Part shown: piece after piece, positions 5,568 through 64,000 of the stretch | How the letters are laid out: every line of letters starts with the position of its first letter | How positions within the stretch are numbered: position 1 is the first letter of the stretch | Source: the human T2T-CHM13v2.0 reference genome, Homo sapiens | Direction: 5' to 3' (one strand) | DNA: 64,000 nt | Assembly: GCF_009914755.1 (NCBI RefSeq) | Contig: NC_060927.1 | Notes under the pieces: model-generated | Seen by the model: the letters and a program-made list of their open reading frames with translations, nothing else | Told to the model about the DNA's origin: nothing | Databases searched by the model: none | Position numbers and translations under genes: made by a program

Positions 5568-5797
5568 TTTTTTTTTTTGGTAGAGACAAGGAGTTCAAAG
5601 TTATGTTGAGCTATGATCACACAACTGCACTCAAGCCTGGGTGACAGAGCAAGACCCTGTCTCAAAAGTGAAAGAAAGGAAAGGAAGGAGGAGGGGAGGG
5701 GAGCCCAAGCTGGTCTGGAACTCCTGGTCTCCAGCGATTATCCCACCTCAGCCTCCCAAAGTGCTGGGATTACAGGCATAAGCCATCATGCCTGGCC
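5568..5797 (-). mobile_element. Alu monomer (FLAM/AluJ left arm) interrupted by an inverted insert at 5589-5703
   Basis: T-run + gtagagaca, then the insert, then gcccaagctggtctggaactcctgg...cctcccaaagtgctgggattacaggc...cctggcc. Confidence 0.85.
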
Positions 5798-5819: not shown

Positions 5820-5992
5820 CTTCCTTCCTTCCTTCCTTCCGTCCTTCCTTCTGTCCTGCCTGCCTTCCTCCCTCCGTCCCTCTCTTCCCTCCCTCCCTCT
5901 CTTCCCTCCCTCCCTTCCTCCCTTCCCTCCCTTGCCTCCCTCCTTTCCTCCTTCTCCCCTCCCCTCCCCTCCTCCTTCCTTTCCTTTCTTTC
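5820..5992. repeat. Polypyrimidine (CCTT/CCCT)n low-complexity tract
   Basis: About 170 bp of almost pure C/T. Confidence 0.95.
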
Positions 5993-5994
5993 GC

Positions 5995-6192
5995 TTTTGA
6001 GACAGGGTCTTGCTCTGTCTTCCAGGCTTGAATGCAGTTCTGTGATCATAGTTCAACATAACTTTGAACTCCTGGGCTCAAGCGATCCTCTTGCCTCAGC
6101 CTCCCAAGTAGCTAGGACTACAGGTATGTGCCACCGCACCTGGCTAATTTTTTTAATGTTTTGTAGAGACAGGGTCTCTCTCTGTCACCCAG
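5995..6192 (-). mobile_element. Partial AluJ
   Basis: ttttgagacagggtcttgctctgtc...ctcctgggctcaagcgatcctc...tagagacagggtctc. Confidence 0.85.
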
Positions 6193-16217: not shown

Positions 16218-18111
16218 GAAAGATTCCAGGCTGCTACATCCCCTTCTGCTTTTCCCTTCTTGTCCTGCCTCTCTTCTATTTGACCACAAGGGGAGGAGTG
16301 AGAGAGAAGTAGAGGAAAGACCACAGTTCAATTAGCAGAGCTCTTGGTGCATAAAGGGTTGTTGAGAAAGGTGAACTGGTTTCCATCTTTCCACTAGGGA
16401 AGGGTCTTCCACTGAACTTAAAAAAAAAAAAAATCTGTTCAGAATGAGCTATGAGATCCATGAGCTAAGTGGAAGGCTATTTGGAAGATGGTTCTGAGAT
16501 ATTTCTGCAAACAGATGAGAGTCTCGTTACCCTGGAGTGTTTGGGAGAGGATCAGCTGAGTGCTCAGGACCCTCACATGGCACAAGTCCAGTCAGTCCCC
16601 TGGACAGAGAATTGTCCCTTCCTGCAGCCAAGGACTGTTGCACACCCAGAGAACACTAGAGGGCACCCCCGCCCCGGAGACGGCCTCTGAGGCCAGGGCG
16701 TAGCTGCAGCCTGGGATGGGAGCGGTACAGGCTTTATATCTCGAACTGTCCTGGGGGTTGCAAGGAGGCTCCAGTTCTGCAAGAAGCCTCAGTCACAGTA
16801 GCTGTTTTGCTAACAATTATACAGACTAGAACAAATTAGGGTAAGGAGCAGGGATGGAGTGGATTTGAGTGACAGCAGGATTTGAGGAGGAGTACAGTTC
16901 AAGACCTGGCTGGGCTGGGAGGGAGCGGGGCTGTGGTAAGGTTCTGGCTCTGTGCACTTGGGTTTGGGAGTACATTGTCAGTTCAGGGACCCTAGTCTTA
17001 GGAGTGGCTCTGGCATAGAGAAGCCACTGGAGCTCCACGGGGAACCCATGCTTTGTCCCCCAGTGTATCCCCAGTGCCCATGGCAGTGCCTAGAACACAG
17101 GAGGGGCACAGAACACATGGTGAGTGGATGTGGGATGAGGGCTAGGGTACCAACAGGGATGCAAATGAGGCATGAGAATGAAGTAGAAGAGCGAGAGGCA
17201 GGAGTGGCAGTGGCTGTGGTGGTAGTGGTGAAGGTCAGAGCCAACATTAGCCGGGCTTCATGGAGTGTGGGTTAATCAGCACTGCCTTTTTAATATGATC
17301 CCACCCCATCTGCTCCACAGAAATGACCTACAATGACCTGTCACTTGATCCCACCTCTCTGCCAACACACACACACACACGTGCGTGAACACACACGCCA
17401 CTTCCCTGAGAGCCATTTCCCTCTTCAGCAGAGGGATGGCCTATGAAGCTTTATAACTAACAAGCATCTGAGCAGACCGTGGAGGACTTTTGCCTGGAAT
17501 CCCCTCAACCAGAGTCCTCTGCCCTGAGGCCTAACACTTGCCAACTGTTCTGCCCTCTTCCTCCTCCCCCTTGGTAATCCAGCCAGCCTCAGCTGGGGAG
17601 TAGCTTCCTGTCTGGAAGCCCTGGGTGGACTGGACTCCTCCTCTGGATTTCAAGTGATTTCAACATTGCCCTTTGTCTATTCCCAGCTGGGAGGGGTGGC
17701 AGCAGGGGAGGGGAGTCTGAAGGCCCAGAGAGGGTTCAGCGGGCTGATGGCAGGGAACAAGGGAGAGGCCACTTGCCCCAGACAGGCAGTCACAGCTCTT
17801 CCTCCTGGCAGAGTCTCCACACAGCCCTGGGAGCAGCTGTCCTAGACCCCTGGGGGCCACACCTTGTAGCTCCCGTGGCCTCTGGTCCTGCTGCCTGGGG
17901 TTAGTCGGGGATTCTCCAGTCTCTCCCTCTTTACACCATAGCACAGACCTGGATGATTTCCTTTCCAGCCAATGAACATCTTCACACTGCAATCTTACTC
18001 CTTTTCCTGTCACTTTTCCAAGTAACATCCTAACACCACAGACTGGAACTTGATTGCCCCCCTGGGACCCACACTCTATGCAGCCCCCACTCTGCTCATT
18101 TCAGAGGGATG

Positions 18112-18112
<1 letters not shown>

Positions 18113-18163
<51 letters not shown>
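18113..18163. repeat. (TG)25 microsatellite
   Basis: Perfect TG run. Confidence 0.97.
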
Positions 18164-18167
<4 letters not shown>

Positions 18168-18844
18168 AGACAGTGATGGCAGTTTTGTTACTCAGTGTCC
18201 CCTGACAGACATTTGGGAGTGGCTAGTGGTTGGGATCCCTGCGAAAGCTGTCCCAGGAGCAGGCATCACGTCTCCGTGACTTGCACCATAGCTCTCAAGG
18301 AGACCTGCTCTATGCATATTGACATGGCTCAACGGGTAAAGGCCGCCTGACACACAGCTGCTAGCATAAAATTGTAAAGTTGGTATGTTTCCCATTGGTA
18401 CCCTAACTTTCTTTCTTTCTGGAGCCCTTGTTTAATTGAAAGTAAAATTTTAATACCTATTTTGTACCTAATTTTCAATTTTTTTTTCAAAACTAAACAG
18501 GGTCATTGAATCAGATGACAGTTTCCATACTCACGATGGCTCTAGCTCCCTGGTGATGCCAGGCCTGCTCGCTTTCTCGCTTTCTGAGCTTTGCTCAGGT
18601 TCACTATTTGCCTCACTTGATTTCTAATTCCTTGTAATTAGAAGAAGTCAAATACATTCTCACCTACTGATCAGTTTTGGTTTTCAAGTGACATTCTGCA
18701 TGTGGAGCTCAGTCTCCTTTGATACTTGAGTCTTCTACCATCTGCCTCACAACTCTACATTCTCCTGTCTCCAAGAGCTCTCTTCCCTTGATGTCCCTCC
18801 ACCTTCTCCTAACCCCCAACTTTTTCTTATCCTATATTCTTTAA

Positions 18845-26545: not shown

Positions 26546-26720
26546 GAGAACTAAGTCAGGGAATCACAGAATGTCAGAGAACAAAGTCAAGGAATCACAG
26601 ACCACCAGAGAACAGAGGTGAGGAACCATAGAATGTCAGAGAATAGAGTCGAGGAATCAGAATGTCAGAGAATAGAGTTGGGGAATCATAGAATGTCAGA
26701 GCTACAAGAGACCTTAAGAG
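26546..26720. repeat. Degenerate ~31-bp tandem repeat (about 5 units) from a MIR3-like end
   Basis: Repeated gaatcacagaatgtcagagaac / gaatcatagaatgtcagag units. Confidence 0.75.
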
Positions 26721-56864: not shown

Positions 56865-56981
56865 CATCCACAGTGACTTGGCAGGAGCACTCCGCCTGGC
56901 CAGCGTCATTCTTGGCTACACACTTGTATAAGCCTCTGTCCTCAGGCAGTGCCTTCTCGATGGAGACGGAGCAGAGTGAGC
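56865..56981 (-). CDS. MYLK: MYLK exon (~19), C-terminal half of an Ig-like domain
   Basis: 117 bp, cccag|GCTCAC...GTGGATG|gtaggt; encodes GSLCSVSIEKALPEDRGLYKCVAKNDAGQAECSCQVTVD with the Ig D-x-G-x-Y-x-C motif. Confidence 0.97.
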
Positions 56982-59900
56982 CTGGGGAGGAAGAATTGTG
57001 GAGTGAACCAGGTGTGGTCGTAGTACCTGCCCTGGCATCTGGAGCGCAGCAGGTGAGTGTTACTCGCACGGGCAGCCTCTGGGAGCCCAGAAGCCAGAGG
57101 CCTTGTGGGAACCAATCCCCCACTCCTCACCAAAGCCAGGGAACTTTCTGCTTATAACCCATGTCCAAAATAACTGATCCCTAAATACGTTCCTTCCTGA
57201 TACCTCCTCCCCCACTCCAAAGAGTCCTCTTGTGGGGACATAATAGAAAGCTGCAAAAGAAGGGAGAGAAATAGCCTCTGCCTTTGGAGACCATCCAATA
57301 CAATACAAGGAGATGCACACAGGCCCTGCCCCCTGGACGTCACCAAGAGAGAAAAGGAGTCCGACACAGGGTTACAGACCTGTGTTAGGAACAGTGACAG
57401 GTGAGGAGGTCCCACTTTGTTTACAGCAGTGATGCTGTGACTGCATTCTGGAAAAGGGAGCTTTGAAGCTTTGAGCAAAGAAGTGGGTGGAGGAGGCTAG
57501 GAGCCCTTGTCCAGGAGGGGCACCGGCCTGTGGGAAGATCTGTTGGGAGGTGGTGACTACAGCCAGGGCCCCAGGAGCTGACTTTTTAGGAAAGGTGTCT
57601 GAGCTGGAGAACCACGGCCAATGAGGGGGACTGGACCTGCAGAGGGGCCCTCTGGGGCTGCCTCCCTTCGGAGTTGGGTCTTCTGGTTGCCCCAGAGAGA
57701 AGTGGGGATGGCCTTTCTTCTCCATGGACTCTCCCCTGGGCCTGCCTTCACTCCCAGCACCATCTTCTGGCCTGGTTTGGGGAAGGAGGTGTCAGCTAGG
57801 CACACACAGGAATCTAGGGTCTCGTCCTGGCCCCTGCCAGCTCTCTCATCCCAGAACTGGTTACTTCTCCTCTGGGCCACCCCTTGGGGAGGTTCCCTCA
57901 GGGTGTGGAAAGAGGCCTGCTGGGCCAGGCAGAAGGGCAGCAGTTCCTTATTCTTGCTTTCAGATGCACAAACAAGTAAATAGCAGGGCATCCTGCTCAA
58001 AGCTGCCCCTGTTGTCAGGGAAGCAACCGTCACACAGGAGGACAGAGCCAGGGCCACATGCACTTTGCTGCCTGGAGCTCCCATCTCATGTCCCACAAGC
58101 CACTGGCATTGGGAGGGAAGAGCTGGGTGCATTCTGAGTGGACACCAACTACTGTCCCTGCCCCCCATTACACAAATGCACAGCCTTGACCAGCAAATAC
58201 AAGGAGATTAGAAAGAGTAAGGATATCAGTTCTGCCCAGAAAACCTCACTAAGGCTGGAAGAGGAAGGAAGGGTGTAATATTCCCCTTTACTCCTTGCCA
58301 CCAGGGTACTGTTTTAAACAGAGAAACCTTCATCCTATAAACCACCTGGGGCAAGAGGGCTGATCTGCACCCCACTCCCCACTTCCTATACCCTTATACA
58401 GACCCCAAACCTCGGGAAGGCTTCACTCTGTTCTCTTCCCTTTGTAGTTAGGAGTCAGAATTTGTAGAAACTGTAATGGAGAGGATTTAGGCTGGAATTT
58501 TAGGAAGTCTGTCAAAAGAGTAAGAATCGTGAGGCACAGGAGTGGGGAATGAGGATAACCATGTCCTGGAGAGAGAACTTTCCATTCATCTGGGTGGGCG
58601 GGAGGATGCCAAGATGACCTCTGGCCCCAACTAGAGGGGCTCAGAGGCTTAGCAGAGACCAATCCCATCTGGAAATTTTCCCTCAAGTCAGGGTGGGGCT
58701 AAGGCTTTGGGAACAGATATCCCACCCCCAACGCACATCCTGTTCAAATCCTTGATTTTCTTTCAGTTTCAGTCCCTCAGCTGCCTTGAGTCTTAAGTCA
58801 AAATGATACAAGCTGCAAAGACAGTACACAGAGAGTAGAGGGGCATGTGGACCCGGCCCCTGCCTCCTCTCCCAGGGCAAGGCATGGGGCAGGCAGCTTT
58901 TCCAACCTGCCCAGAGCCTGGACCCCTGGCCATGTGCATGGGCTTGGGGAGGCCCCCCTAGCAGGCTTGCAGGCTTGGCTACCCCAGATGAAGAATCTGG
59001 TATTTCCTGTGGGACAGTTCATTCTTGACCTCCAGAAGAAAAGCTGTTTCCCAGAGGTTTTTTTTTGAGAAGCCTCAGCCTGGTGGGGAATTCTGAGAGG
59101 GAGATGAGGGGGATGGGAGAGGTCAGCATCACTGCAGAGCTCCGCCTGGGAGAGCCCCTCAGGGCTGTGGTGGAGTAAGCGCTCCTGGGTCTGAAGCTCC
59201 CCCAGCTCTCTCCTTTTCTGAGTTGGGGGCAGAGGGGAGGAAGGGGATGTGGATGGAGGGAGGGAGCTTCCTGGAGGCTCTGCTATAGGGCTGCCTCAGT
59301 CAGCCTACCCAGCCCACCTGGCAAGCCCAGACAGTAAGACTCATCTCCAGGTCACCCCTGCAGGCATGGTGTCCTCCTTGTTCCCCCTAATCCCCCAGGC
59401 CTAGGCGGACCTCTTCTGTGCTCCCAACTCTGAGCTCACCCATGTCAAAGCACGGCTCACAAGGCCATTGCTGACCTGCATGCCTGTCTCCCACACCAGC
59501 TCTCAGAGGGCAGTGACCCTGTCTAACACCACTGTTTTTCCTAAGCCTGGAATGCAGTCACAGTAAAACATATTTGTCATTCTGAGAAGGATGAAGGCAT
59601 ATTTCTGTAGCAGGTGATCTGGTAGGATCTATGTAAGAAAAGGTCACAAACAGTTAAATATAACTTACTATTGAAAAAGATAATATATAGTTTCTGAAAA
59701 AAGAAAATTCAGAGTTCTTCGAGTGGATTATGCACACAACAAAGGGCATTAGAATAATGCCTTGCTCATAGTAGATGCTGCATAAATCCATTTTTCGTAG
59801 GATGAACTTACATGGGTTTTTAAAAAGCCTTTGCAAAATTCTACCCTGAAGGCAATTAAAAATGAATTACCTATTCACAACAGCAACAAAAATGAATCCT

Positions 59901-62331
59901 CATTGTTAGACTCGGAAAAGTGTTTTGCCAGGAGGAGGAGCCTGGCCTGGAGACAGGAAACAAAGCATAAAGATAAAGCTCTTCTCAGGCCACCACAGAG
60001 CTCCCCTCAGCTCACGGGACCATCGGCCTCCCACCACCCCTCAGCAGAGGCAGGTCCCGGAAGGGCTAGGAAAAGACTTGGGGGCAGAGGGCAGGCCCAG
60101 TTGGTGGTAACTCTGAATCCCATCAGCCCTGCAGCTCTAGGGGTACAGGAAGAGGAAGGACACCTCCACGTGTCTGTGTCCTGCCACAAATCAACTAGTG
60201 GTGAACTCTAGCCCATGGCTGTCAAACCTCTTCTGCTTTCCTCAGCACGAAAGGGGGTGAACTAAATGGGGTGATGTAATCCTGTTTGGGTGGGGGTCTG
60301 TGGGCTATGAGCCCTATCTAAGCTACAGACATCAGAGAAGTCCCCTGAAACCTATAAACAGCACGTCCACTAGCAGTTGGTGCACGCAGATACACAGGTT
60401 GATGGGGAGGGGACAGTGCAAGAGTCTCTCGTGGCCAAAGGTGGGTGACAACAGGAAGGCATCCTGGAGGAAGTGAATCTTGTTTGTAGCAGAGCTGACA
60501 GGGTGGGGATCAGTGCAGTGGAGCAAAAAGGGCTCCAAGTCAGGAAGCCGGGGGCAGGGCCAGTGCTGAGCTGAGTGTGAAGGATGCAGGACGGGAGGCC
60601 AGCGGAGCCATTCCCTCACCTTCCCCTAGAAGCCTCCTCCAACCACCGGCTTCCTTATTCCCACTGACACGACCACTGAGACCCCAGCCACTCAGGCACC
60701 CACACTTAGTGGTCTTCCATTCCTTCATCTTCTTTACCTACCCCCACCCCCATCCTGCCCTTCCAAGCCAGGCAACAGGTGCCATTACTTCTATCCTTGC
60801 TTCTCGAACTGGTCATTCCCTGACTGTGGTTGTGGCTACTACGCTAGTCTAGGCCTCACCATCTTCCTCTCGACCTCTTCAGTAGGCTCTGTATTTGTCT
60901 TTTGGGCACAGAGTCCACCAAAACCCCTAAACTGAGCTTCATGTACAGTGTTCTTCATCCCAAAATCTTGCATGATTCCCTACTGCCTTTAGACTGGAAT
61001 TCCTTGGCAGAATATAGGATGAAACTGGGGCCATGTCATCCTCTCCAGCCCAGAACAAGCTGTTAGCAGGATGCCTCTGCTGCTGCGGGGCCCCCGCCTG
61101 GAAGCCCGTCCCCTCTGGCCTGTCTTCGGGGCTTAGATCAAAGTCCAGCACTCAGCTCCCTCTCTTCCCACTTCCAGCAGCTCCTCCCGACACACTCATA
61201 GCACTTGTCAGCACTTGGCTGTAACAATTTTATCACTGTGAGTGTGTCTTCTCCTTCCACATCTATTGAGAAAAGACTCCCTCCACCTCTCAGAATGCCC
61301 TACTGCCTGAGGAGGGACCTGCTTAAATGGTGACTGATAGATGAAGCCTTAAGATAAGTTTTTTCCTTAACAAAACACTGGGCTCTTGAAGTCTTGGCGA
61401 GTGAAGGGACAGAAGGTGGGGCCGATTTTTTGAGACAACGCACTCTCCTGTACTGAAGCAAGACAGGCCCATTGCAAGGTCTGCTTCCACCACTGCAGGG
61501 AAAATACCAGAAACCTGGCAAGGCTAGGGGCACCATCAGTGTTTCAACCTTTGGACAACTCTTAACAAAATCGAGGAGTAAATAGTCATTAGTGTTTTCT
61601 GTTGATAGACAAATTCTCAGCTGCCACCAGTACCCTGATAAAATAATAGGAATTAACTAAGAGGTCATATAGCACGGTGGTCTAGGCACGGGAACTCAGC
61701 CACCTGAGTTCAAATCCCAGCTCTGTTACCCCCAGCACCTTGCATTTGGCAAGGTACTTAACTTCTCTGTTAGGTGGACAGTACAGTCATTGTTGGGAGG
61801 ATTAAATGGGTGAAAAGTGTAAGAGGCCTAAGATAGTGTCTAACACATAGTGTTCAACATATGTCAGCTATTCTTTAAACACAATTTAAAAATATTTAGA
61901 AGATGTCTTACAGTTTGATTTGGGGCTCTCTCTGGAATCCCTTTCCACCTCTCCTGGTCTCTCTCTCCCCTTCGTGTGCAGCCTTCCTTGGATCATTTCT
62001 TCTGCTGCTGCTCTGGATCTGAACTGTTCCCTCTGGGACGGTTTCCATGGGAAGGGAGGCTGGAGTGGCTAGGATCTCTAGGCTCTTTACCACTAAGGGA
62101 CCAGCAGGGAAAACATACTGCAGGCACTCAGGGCACGAGAAGACAGTGGCTAATGGCTCAGAAGAGTTTCTGAGACCAGGCCTGGGGTCTGCCTTACATC
62201 GCTTAGTTGAGTGAATTGTTTGTAAGTGGCTGTTGATGGCTCTGGGTTTAAACCCCATGCAAGCCCAAGAACAGCTGCCCCCAACTGACTTAACCTCAGT
62301 TTCCCTGAGGCTGGAGCAGCCACAGACCTCC

Positions 62332-62514
62332 CAACGCCAAACCTGCTGAGACCCTGAAGCCCATGGGCAGCGCCAAGCCTGATGAGAACCTGAAATCCAC
62401 TAGCAAAGAAGAACTCAAGAAAGATATTAAGAATGATGCGAACTGCAAGAGAGGCCATGCAGGGACCACAGATAATGAAAAGAGATCAGAGAGCCAGGGG
62501 ACAGCCCCAACCTT
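62332..62514 (+). pseudogene. Inverted, diverged partial copy of the large upstream MYLK exon (~18) inside the following intron
   Basis: From 62333 the + strand reads NAKPAETLKPMGSAKPDENLKSTSKEELKKDIKNDANCKRGHAGTTDNEKRSESQGTAPT. The recalled MYLK sequence is NAKPAETLKPMGNAKPDENLKSASKEELKKDVKNDVNCKRGHAGTTDNEKRSESQGTAPA. Opposite strand to the gene, no flanking splice sites, no poly(A). Confidence 0.9.
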
Positions 62515-64000
62515 GTCCTGAGGATGGTGGATGCCACCCTGCATCCTGCCTGGAGAGATCACCGTAGGGTGACCTGGGAAATGTTCCCAGTCAGGGTTTC
62601 CAATCAGTTTTACCAAGGACTTTCCAAGTGGGAGAGCCCCACAGGGGCGGCAGGACAGGTTGTGGCGTCTGCTCCTCTGAAGTCTCACCCCAGCCCAATA
62701 ATCCCCCATGCCTCAGGGGAGGGGGGCTGAGCCAGCAGAGGTGGGGGATGGAGGAGACGACTTCTGGAGGACCCTGCCAATCTGAGGACATCCACATGGA
62801 AAAGTTACTGCGTCAACACATTAGCAGAAAATAACATGTTTCTCTCTGCCAGCCAGTGTCCCCTTCACTCTTTCAGCACTGAGATTCAATATACTCAGCT
62901 GCTCCAGGTGTGCTGTCCCAGATGTAGAGGGAAGACAGACCCTTACCGGGGGCTGAGAGGGATTCTGTGATCTTCAAATGCTCCATTCTGCTTGTGAGGG
63001 GAAGGCAGGCACGATAAAAGGTGAGGGAGGGAGTGGGGAGGGTGCTGCCAGGGGCCAGGGAGGGGAGCAGCCCACAGGAAGAGCACTCTGACACCTCAGC
63101 TGACTCAGATTTGACAGGACCTGTCCACTCCGGCTTCTTCTGTGGCTGCCCTCTGCCCCTCAAGGGTGAAATGTCACTTCCTGGGAGCTTCTTTGTACCC
63201 TACCCTGTCTGGAGCCACCAGCATCAGCTCAGGCAGGACTCTGTTCTGTGCTGGCAACCTATCCCTCCGCTGGCTGCCAGAATGGGGTGTGGAGGTCGGC
63301 CGGCCTCAGAGCTCCCACCCAGACTTGGGATTTACAAAAGCACTTCAAACCAAATTGAGGGTCCAGAGAAAATACTCCTGTGTCACCCCCATCTCTTCTC
63401 CAAGTATAAACTGGCTCCTCTGAAAACTCCAGACCCCAAAAGTCCACACAGATGGAAGGATTTGGGGCCCCCCTCCTCTCCCCACCATCCAAGAATGTGA
63501 AATACCAGCAAACAAAAGTCTCATCCAAATTAGGAAGCGAGTAGCTCTGTCTGCCCGTGAGTGTGTGCTGTAGGGGCTGTTTTGGGATTTTGGGTTTCCC
63601 GACAGATCCCTTCAAACCCACAGTGCTATCAAGACTGAAGTTATTGTTGACCCCAACTCAGAGCTCCGTGCCATCTGGTCACTGCACACCGTTCCCCAAA
63701 CCTAAGATGCTTCTCTAAACAGCTCTTTACTCAGAGCTTCTCCCTGGCTCCAGCCTCTGTGTCCCCCACCTCCAAGCCTGTAGACAGAGCCCTCTCCATG
63801 CCGGAGCTTGGAATTAACTCAGGCTCAGGTCTCCTCTGGGGAGCCACAGGTGGCGGTGCCATGAGAGGGCTCTGCCAGATGGGTGCCGAGATGTGGGCAT
63901 GTGCCACAAGGACCAGGATCCCAGCCCTTAGCCCCAGCCTTGGTGCATGTACCCAAGGCCCCTGAGCCGGGACCTATCCTTGAGTTAGCAGGAAACAGGG

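What the first reader, a model, noticed from the sequence alone, without database searches (positions are those of the whole stretch)
62332..62514. Intron carries an inverted copy of MYLK's own upstream coding exon: a candidate built-in exon-complementary element
Seen: about 183 bp on the + strand translate without indels to NAKPAETLKPMGSAKPDENLKSTSKEELKKDIKNDANCKRGHAGTTDNEKRSESQGTAPT, while every real exon here is on the - strand. The copy has no poly(A), splice sites or clear TSD. Known (recalled): this matches the KPxGNAKPAETL-repeat/linker region of MYLK's large exon (~18) at about 55 of 60 residues, and that exon should lie just past the right edge of the window. Inference: the nascent transcript would contain the exon followed roughly 2 kb later by its near-perfect reverse complement. 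That could form a ~180-bp exon:intron duplex like an ADAR editing-complementary sequence, which might recode, alter splicing or back-splicing, or yield dsRNA.
Basis: partly seen in the sequence, partly recalled or inferred. Interest (0 to 1): 0.85.

Follow-up and report, generated by a model that had tools for sequence, protein, structure and literature searches.

The report
Inverted MYLK exon fragment in intron
A 183-base piece of a MYLK coding exon was copied backwards into the next intron during primate evolution, so the gene's unspliced RNA could fold into a long double strand, but nothing seen here shows that this does anything.

Summary
Window 62332-62514 (+) is an ungapped inverted copy, 174 of 183 bases identical, of an internal part of the large MYLK exon just outside the window (64489-64307, - strand). 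The two arms are 1792 nt apart.

New here: the MYLKP1 paralogue on chr3 keeps an empty site. It has 25 unrelated bases where MYLK has the copy, with 2-nt and 1-nt junction overlaps, no target-site duplication and no poly(A). The copy is therefore a templated inverted insertion made after the MYLK/MYLKP1 duplication.

In the modelled pre-mRNA, 180 of 183 exon bases pair in register with the copy (174 Watson-Crick, 6 G:U, 3 A:C). The exon arm holds 66 adenosines, and 53 would recode if edited.

MYLK is absent from the GTEx recoding catalogue (sites edited at 1% or more), although that catalogue's paralogue filters weaken this negative. The substitution pattern shows no significant selection for pairing.

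Best reading: a neutral repair or replication relic that incidentally makes an exon:intron duplex. A functional editing or splicing role stays possible but unshown.

The parts
62332..62514 (+). Inverted copy of an internal fragment of the large MYLK exon. It reads in coding sense on the + strand and lies 1643 nt into the 7176-nt intron of the - strand gene. Its source, the 5' arm of the predicted RNA duplex, lies OUTSIDE the window at window-equivalent 64307-64489 (- strand; chr3:126420307-126420489). The source sits inside an inferred exon of about 986 nt at window-equivalent 64158-65143 (- strand; donor G|GTAAAT at 64158/64157).
   Evidence: 174 of 183 identical, no gaps. Genome-wide E 5.5e-76. 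Peptide confirmed. Exon open frame and splice motifs. In-phase join to the next annotated exon.
62332..62333 (+). Left junction. The two bases CA are shared by the intron flank (as kept in MYLKP1) and by the exon source, giving a 2-nt overlap.
   Evidence: MYLK/MYLKP1 alignment and copy/exon alignment.
62514..62514 (+). Right junction. One T is shared by the end of the exon match and the resumed intron homology, giving a 1-nt overlap.
62515..64000 (-). The in-window part of the 1792-nt loop between the arms. The whole loop is window-equivalent 62515-64306. It consists of 1643 nt of intron, the 5' splice site at 64158/64157 and the last 149 nt of the exon; the last two lie beyond the window edge.
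   Evidence: Coordinates. Folding model.
56865..56981 (-). Next annotated exon. Its 3' splice site lies 5350 nt beyond the far end of the copy, so the copy is transcribed well before the intron can be removed.
   Evidence: Hub annotation. Frame check.
61245..61250 (.). Edge of the MYLK/MYLKP1 segmental duplication, 1.08 kb from the copy.
   Evidence: Homology runs 61245-62333 and stops there. In MYLKP1 the edge abuts an Alu tail. Window 60300-61244 matches only itself in the assembly.

Best explanation
This is a lineage-specific templated inverted insertion.

Origin. After the segmental duplication that produced MYLKP1, a break or stalled fork in the MYLK intron was repaired by copying about 180 nt from the opposite strand of the exon 1.8 kb away. 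The copy replaced 25 nt of intron and joined with 2-nt and 1-nt overlaps. It has since drifted: 9 transitions, 6 of them at CpG sites.

Present effect. Every MYLK pre-mRNA that includes this exon carries the exon segment and, 1792 nt later, its near-perfect complement. The complement is transcribed 5.35 kb before the intron's 3' splice site. A 183-bp exon:intron duplex can therefore form and is probably touched by ADAR at low, Alu-like levels.

Most likely this is an unselected by-product.

Shown: the copy, its source, the empty site in MYLKP1, the junctions and the predicted pairing.
Inferred: the repair mechanism, duplex formation in cells, low-level editing and neutrality.
For: Copy and source:
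- 183 nt, 174 identical, inverted, 1792 nt apart.

Empty site in MYLKP1:
- MYLKP1 is collinear with the MYLK intron on both sides: 94.4% over 1089 nt and 93.8% over 1508 nt.
- It has 25 unrelated nt (chr3:75368966-75368990) exactly where the copy sits.
- Flank homology stops within 1-2 nt of where exon homology starts and ends.
- There is no poly(A) and no target-site duplication.

Which exon was the template:
- The copy is closer to the MYLK exon (95.1%) than to the MYLKP1 exon (92.9% over 156 nt).

Age:
- Copy-to-exon K2P distance is 0.052; MYLK-to-MYLKP1 flank K2P distance is 0.060.

No sign of selection for pairing:
- All 9 differences are transitions, but the local transition fraction is 109 of 148, so P = 0.064.
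- 6 of 9 differences keep pairing as G:U, P = 0.068.
- By my count differences change the residue and 4 are silent-type.

Duplex:
- 174 Watson-Crick pairs, 6 G:U and 3 A:C.
- Duplex energy is -371.1 kcal/mol, against -89.8 +/- 8.0 for 50 shuffles.
- In the minimum-energy fold of 2601 nt, 180 of 183 bases pair in register. The energy is -1273.0, against -965.7 kcal/mol with the copy arm blocked.

No recorded recoding:
- MYLK occurs 0 times and FLNA 125 times in the readable supplements of PMC8897444.
- MYLK occurs 0 times and FLNA 8 times in those of PMC10085048.
Against: - Polarity rests on one paralogue. No outgroup genome was available, so 'insertion after the duplication' is an argument from coinciding boundaries, not an observed ancestral state.
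- Overlaps of 1-2 nt are common by chance. They do not separate replication template switching from end-joining capture of a DNA or cDNA fragment.
- Neutrality is not demonstrated. 9 of 9 transitions and 6 of 9 wobble-preserving changes lean, non-significantly, towards kept pairing.
- 8 of the 9 differences fall in the first 108 nt, leaving a perfect 70-nt run.
- The negative editing evidence is weak. The catalogue drops mismatches shared with loci at least 94% similar, masks loci with mixed mismatch types (likely here because of MYLKP1), ignores sites edited below 1%, and uses polyA-type GTEx data.
- One supplement file was stored cut and two PDFs were unreadable.
- The duplex pairs more completely (95% complementary) than any of the 25 longest inverted pairs listed inside the window (71-93%). 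'Alu-like low editing' may therefore underestimate it.
Confidence: 0.65

Rival explanations
1. It is a working editing-complementary sequence. The duplex recruits ADAR1 or ADAR2 to nascent MYLK pre-mRNA and recodes the Lys/Asn/Glu-rich linker of MLCK, or marks transcripts for nuclear retention. This would be a young, primate-specific gain.
For: - It has the geometry of a classical editing-complementary sequence: downstream intron, same transcript, made 5.35 kb before the 3' splice site.
- The exon arm is the A-rich arm, with 66 A against 22 in the intron arm. 53 of the 66 would change the residue.
- One exon A (64451, Asn codon) already faces a C. An A:C mismatch is, from recalled knowledge, a favoured ADAR context.
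- Long editing-complementary sequences made of inverted duplicated coding sequence are documented, for example CLDN9/CLDN6 at 1741 bp and TOR1B/TOR1A (passages of PMC8897444).
Against: - MYLK is absent from the readable supplements of the 1517-site GTEx catalogue, although smooth-muscle tissues are covered and FLNA is found.
- No paper in the searched library links MYLK with editing sites. Searches (2 papers; 18 papers) returned papers that, by title and abstract start, are not about editing of MYLK transcripts. One search returned 0 papers.
- There is no significant signal of preserved pairing.
Confidence: 0.1
2. It modulates splicing or processing. The 183-bp stem places the exon's 5' splice site (149 nt from the stem base) in a closed 1.8-kb loop. 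This would slow or alter removal of the 7.2-kb intron, or change isoform output.
For: Predicted stem and distances. It is known in general that long-range RNA pairing can affect splice-site use (recalled).
Against: - No annotated alternative exon or transcript end lies at 57053-64000 in the hub table.
- One arm lies inside the exon, so it does not have the flanking-intron geometry that promotes back-splicing.
- Nothing was tested here.
Confidence: 0.1
3. The origin was RNA-mediated. A fragment of MYLK (pre-)mRNA was reverse-transcribed and captured at a double-strand break, rather than copied from DNA by template switching.
For: The fragment lies wholly within one exon, so DNA and RNA templates cannot be told apart. 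The junctions look like end joining.
Against: - There is no poly(A), no target-site duplication and no splice junction in the fragment.
- The template lies only 1.8 kb away in inverted orientation, which suits local strand switching.
Confidence: 0.12
4. The copy is ancestral and was lost from MYLKP1, so the polarity is reversed.
For: - Copy-to-exon divergence (K2P 0.052) is nearly as large as the paralogue divergence (0.060).
- In the 123-nt non-repeat part the copy-specific branch (3 changes) is not shorter than the MYLKP1-specific one (1 substitution plus a 4-nt insertion).
Against: - A deletion in MYLKP1 would have had to hit both ends of the copy to within 1-2 nt and add 25 unrelated bases.
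- 6 of the 9 copy-to-exon differences are CpG transitions, which inflates the distance.
Confidence: 0.03

Closest known systems
Classical intronic editing-complementary sequences, such as GRIA2 Q/R and FLNA Q/R (recalled)
   Same: A downstream intronic stretch complementary to a coding exon of the same pre-mRNA, transcribed before the intron can be spliced out.
   Different: Classical cases are short, imperfect, deeply conserved and have shown site-selective editing. This one is 183 bp, 98% paired, no older than the MYLKP1 duplication, of known duplicative origin, and has no shown editing.
Long editing-complementary sequences made of inverted paralogous coding sequence: CLDN9/CLDN6 and TOR1B/TOR1A (PMC8897444, passages read)
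   Same: The complementary arm is a duplicated coding sequence in reverse orientation. For CLDN9 it lies 1741 bp away, almost the same spacing as here (1792 nt).
   Different: In those cases the arm is an exon of a neighbouring paralogue reached by an extended 3'UTR, and clusters of 10-19 edited sites are observed. Here the arm is a fragment inside the gene's own intron, and MYLK does not occur in the catalogue's readable supplementary files.
Templated insertions and template-switch mutations of the MMBIR/FoSTeS type (PMC8421209 and PMC7954356, abstracts seen in the listing)
   Same: The inserted sequence is copied from a nearby template, inverted, joined at microhomology, with loss of a few bases at the target and no transposon hallmarks.
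   Different: Many described events are shorter or belong to large rearrangements (recalled). Here a single 180-nt event is fixed, and its pre-insertion state is preserved by a paralogue.
Inverted Alu pairs in introns
   Same: Intramolecular dsRNA in pre-mRNA within about 2 kb. These are the usual ADAR1 substrates with low per-site editing (recalled).
   Different: One arm here is coding and stays in the mRNA. Complementarity is 95%, against 71-93% for the 25 longest inverted pairs in this window.
MYLKP1, the partial duplicate of MYLK exons 13-17 (PMC6116948, passages read)
   Same: It derives from the same exon and is of comparable age (about 6% divergence).
   Different: MYLKP1 is a segmental duplication of more than 4.7 kb (the homology held here, window 61245-65949; its far end was not mapped) to 3p12, in the same orientation. 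It lacks the inverted copy and so serves as the empty-site reference.

Membership tests
ADAR editing-complementary sequence | A sequence in the same primary transcript that is complementary to the exon. | tested here: met
   174 Watson-Crick pairs, 6 G:U and 3 mismatches over 183 nt. 180 of 183 bases pair in register in the minimum-energy fold of 2601 nt.
ADAR editing-complementary sequence | A-to-I editing observed at exon sites. | tested here: inconclusive
   MYLK occurs 0 times in the readable supplements of PMC8897444, with FLNA as control at 125, and 0 times in PMC10085048. The catalogue's filters for similar loci and its 1% cut-off could hide editing. No RNA-seq data were available here.
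ADAR editing-complementary sequence | Editing depends on the element, shown by deletion or mutation. | not testable with these tools
   This needs a minigene or genome edit.
ADAR editing-complementary sequence | Pairing is maintained in evolution. | tested here: inconclusive
   9 of 9 differences are transitions (P = 0.064) and 6 of 9 keep pairing (P = 0.068) against local rates. No second species was available.
Templated (template-switch or MMBIR-type) insertion | The inserted bases have a nearby template. | tested here: met
   The template lies 1792 nt away on the opposite strand, 95.1% identical.
Templated (template-switch or MMBIR-type) insertion | Microhomology at the junctions and no target-site duplication. 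| tested here: met
   CA (2 nt) and T (1 nt), with 25 nt of target lost. The overlaps are short enough to arise by chance.
Templated (template-switch or MMBIR-type) insertion | The pre-insertion (empty) site is known. | tested here: met
   The MYLKP1 paralogue at chr3:75368966-75368990. This is a paralogue, not an orthologous outgroup.
L1-mediated processed retrocopy | Poly(A) tail and target-site duplication. | tested here: not met
   Neither is present. The target lost 25 nt instead.
L1-mediated processed retrocopy | The copy spans spliced exon junctions. | tested here: inconclusive
   The fragment lies within a single exon, 149 nt short of the donor.
Part of the MYLK/MYLKP1 segmental duplication | Present in both paralogues. 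| tested here: not met
   It is absent from MYLKP1, although both flanks are present and collinear.
Known RNA family (Rfam) | A match at the gathering score. | tested here: not met
   One hit in 61000-64000: 20.2 bits against a gathering score of 50, E = 0.69, at 62696-62759, outside the copy.

The most novel reading that the evidence does not exclude
This would be the birth of an editing-complementary sequence caught in the act. A single templated inverted insertion, datable by the empty site in MYLKP1, would have given catarrhine or hominoid MYLK a 183-bp exon:intron duplex. ADAR would edit it in smooth-muscle and endothelial nascent RNA, recoding the linker of MLCK that follows the DFRxxL actin-binding motifs, or holding back a fraction of transcripts. 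It would have escaped the catalogues because filters for similar loci (MYLKP1 and the copy itself) mask this exon.
Probability: 0.1. Interest if true: 0.7.

Novelty: new member of a known kind. Interest (0 to 1): 0.35.

Why it matters
If the duplex is edited, this would be a rare case where the mutational origin and age of an exon-complementary element are both known. That would make the question of how recoding sites arise directly testable in a medically relevant gene. MYLK is linked, from recalled knowledge, to thoracic aortic disease and visceral myopathy.

Even if the copy is inert, it matters in practice:
- The copy and MYLKP1 are look-alikes of this exon. All 9 differences are transitions. 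By my reading, three of them (1 A>G, 2 T>C) would mimic editing, and all nine could mimic variants, when reads are misplaced.
- The copy could also donate its five residue changes to the exon by gene conversion.
- It could mediate a 1.8-kb inversion that removes the exon's end and splice donor. Both of these last two points are inferences.

Tried and rejected
- Frame as given: the frame from 62332 has stops. The correct frame starts at 62333.
- A second copy inside the window: none. The 25 longest inverted pairs are dispersed, Alu-like repeats. 11 of 11 annotated exons have only self matches.
- Clock test of polarity in the 123-nt non-repeat part: 3 copy-only changes, 1 exon-only, 1 MYLKP1-only plus a 4-nt insertion, and 1 site where all three differ. 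Too few to decide.
- Selection for pairing: not significant.
- PDB sequence search to name the exon: it found only an Ig-like domain at the exon's end (titin 1.3e-13; a different MLCK Ig domain, 2yr3, at 6.1e-05). There was no identical chain. The exon's identity therefore rests on the hub annotation, the open frame, the splice motifs and the in-phase join to the next annotated exon, plus recalled DFRxxL and KPxGNAKP features.
- Rfam: nothing real.
- Literature searches: 2 papers; 18; 35 papers, 12 listed, circRNA and pseudogene reviews by title; 0; 0. None describes this element.
- Han et al. 2011 on MYLKP1 was not held.
- No primate genome, RNA-seq or variant data were available, so dating by orthologues, editing and polymorphism could not be tested.

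Full report
**1. The observation**

The sequence at 62332-62514 was read directly. The frame that starts at 62332 contains stops.

I searched the window's own assembly with 62250-62600 and got 6 matches:
- the query itself;
- an inverted match at chr3:126420307-126420489, which is window-equivalent 64307-64489 on the - strand (95%, E 5.5e-76);
- a weak offset match to the neighbouring 36-nt repeat unit;
- three pieces at chr3:75.37 Mb.

A local alignment shows 183 columns without gaps and 174 identities. The match is far beyond chance. As a control I compared 12 exons with 65,989 bases around them, and only this exon has a non-self match.

**2. What the source is**

The - strand beyond the window edge carries a long open frame. 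It holds four DFRxxL motifs and three 12-residue KPxGNAKP units. I recognise both from memory as features of MLCK. By my comparison of the peptides printed, 55 of 60 residues are identical.

The frame is bounded by an AG acceptor near 65143 and a donor G|GTAAAT at 64158/64157. The exon ends in phase 1. The next annotated exon (56981-56865) starts with two bases that complete a Gly codon and continues open through the rest of an Ig-like domain.

The source (64489-64307) is therefore internal to an exon of about 986 nt and ends 149 nt before the donor. The copy begins 1643 nt into the 7176-nt intron. The arms are 1792 nt apart. The 3' splice site lies a further 5350 nt beyond the copy. The exon number could not be checked.

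**3. Origin: an empty site survives in MYLKP1**

The matches at chr3:75.37 Mb belong to MYLKP1. The passages I read in PMC6116948 describe it as a partial duplicate of MYLK exons 13-17, about 93% similar to MYLK, with a divergence 'unique to higher hominids'.

MYLKP1 is collinear with MYLK on both sides of the copy: 94.4% over 1089 nt on the left and 93.8% over 1508 nt on the right. Its own version of the exon lies at the expected distance and in the expected orientation.

Where MYLK has the copy, MYLKP1 has 25 unrelated bases (75368966-75368990). Flank homology ends at the same CA where exon homology begins, and it resumes at the same T where exon homology ends. There is no poly(A) and no target-site duplication.

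Both boundaries of the MYLK/MYLKP1 difference coincide with both boundaries of the exon match. The event that made the difference is therefore the event that brought in the exon fragment. It replaced 25 nt with about 180 nt in the MYLK lineage after the duplication.

The copy is closer to the MYLK exon (95.1%) than to the MYLKP1 exon (92.9% over 156 nt). It also carries the last repeat unit in the MYLK form.

This anatomy fits a templated insertion by local strand switching or break repair. That mechanism is an inference. Overlaps of 1-2 nt are weak evidence, and capture of a cDNA fragment cannot be excluded.

**4. Age**

- Flank divergence between MYLK and MYLKP1 is 148 differences in 2586 aligned sites, K2P 0.060. 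Copy-to-exon K2P is 0.052.
- Six of the nine copy-to-exon differences are in CpG context, so only 3 of 183 are not. For the flanks, 112 of 2586 are not.
- With recalled primate rates of about 1.0-1.5e-9 per site per year, the duplication is of the order of 20-30 million years old. The insertion is younger but not recent.
- A three-way count in the 123-nt non-repeat part gives 3 copy-only changes, 1 exon-only, 1 MYLKP1-only plus a 4-nt insertion, and 1 site where all three differ. This is too sparse for a clock test.
- No outgroup genome was available.

**5. The RNA**

In the - strand transcript the arms give 174 Watson-Crick pairs, 6 G:U pairs and 3 A:C or C:A mismatches. The duplex energy is -371.1 kcal/mol, against -89.8 +/- 8.0 for 50 shuffles of one arm.

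I folded 2601 nt of pre-mRNA (64700 to 62100). In the minimum-energy structure 180 of 183 exon-arm bases pair in register with the copy. The energy is -1273.0 kcal/mol, against -965.7 when the copy arm is forced single-stranded.

The pair is more complementary than any of the 25 longest inverted pairs listed inside the window (71-93%).

The exon arm has 66 adenosines, and 53 would change the residue if read as G. The intron arm has 22. One exon adenosine (64451) faces a C.

These are thermodynamic predictions. Whether the duplex forms in cells was not tested.

**6. Is it used?**

- The GTEx-wide catalogue of coding A-to-I sites (PMC8897444) covers 9125 samples and 47 tissues, lists 1517 sites, and keeps sites edited at 1% or more in some tissue (section read). 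Its readable supplements contain MYLK 0 times and FLNA 125 times.
- A cardiovascular editing study (PMC10085048) also has MYLK 0 times and FLNA 8 times in its supplements. It may not be independent of the first.
- Caveats on the catalogue: it discards mismatches shared with loci at least 94% similar over 61 nt or more, masks loci with mixed mismatch types, and is restricted to non-repetitive coding sequence. Any of these could affect this exon, given the copy and MYLKP1. One supplement file was stored cut and two PDFs were unreadable.
- Literature searches for MYLK with editing terms found nothing on editing of MYLK transcripts: 2 papers; 18 papers; 0 papers.
- The substitution pattern gives no significant sign of selection for pairing. 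All 9 differences are transitions, P = 0.064 at the local transition fraction of 0.736. Six of 9 keep pairing, P = 0.068.
- Five differences change the residue and four are silent-type (my count), which is unremarkable for a sequence that is not translated.

**7. Verdict**

The copy is a post-duplication, templated, inverted insertion of an internal exon fragment, and its empty site is preserved in a pseudogene.

The structure is as predicted, but there is no evidence of editing, duplex reads or a splicing effect, and there is one imperfect negative.

The closest documented analogues are the long editing-complementary sequences formed by inverted paralogous coding exons, CLDN9/CLDN6 and TOR1B/TOR1A.

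I rate it a new member of a known kind. It most likely has no selected function (0.65), with about 0.1 each for an editing role and a splicing role.

It has practical relevance for read mapping, variant calling and editing calls in this MYLK exon.

Noticed in passing
window 61245-61250; L005 (chr3:75367832-75367880): The MYLK/MYLKP1 segmental duplication ends here, 1.08 kb from the inverted copy. On the MYLKP1 side the homology abuts the tail of an Alu-like element. Window 60300-61244 has only a self match in the assembly.
   Followed up: partly
L003, chr3:75370740-75371010 (- strand): The MYLKP1 version of the exon seems to have fewer 36-nt KPxGNAKP repeat units where MYLK has three. It also carries a 4-nt insertion (a duplicated ACAG) that would shift the frame.
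   Followed up: partly
window 5583-5703 and 5959-6079: An inverted pair of 121 nt, 93% complementary and only 255 nt apart, lies in a stretch masked as repeats. It is the tightest intronic hairpin candidate listed inside the window.
   Followed up: no
window 26546-26719: An imperfect tandem array with a unit of about 31 nt, five copies at 62-100% identity to the reference copy, in an intron (family D16).
   Followed up: no
window 18093-18177: A long (TG)n microsatellite lies inside the RefSeq-listed enhancer 17838-18346 (family D13; hub table).
   Followed up: no
window 62333-62520 (+): On the + strand the copy keeps an open frame from 62309 to a stop at 62519-62521, with one internal ATG. It lies within the span of the predicted lncRNA LOC105369194, but not in an exon listed by the hub (hub table).
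   Followed up: no
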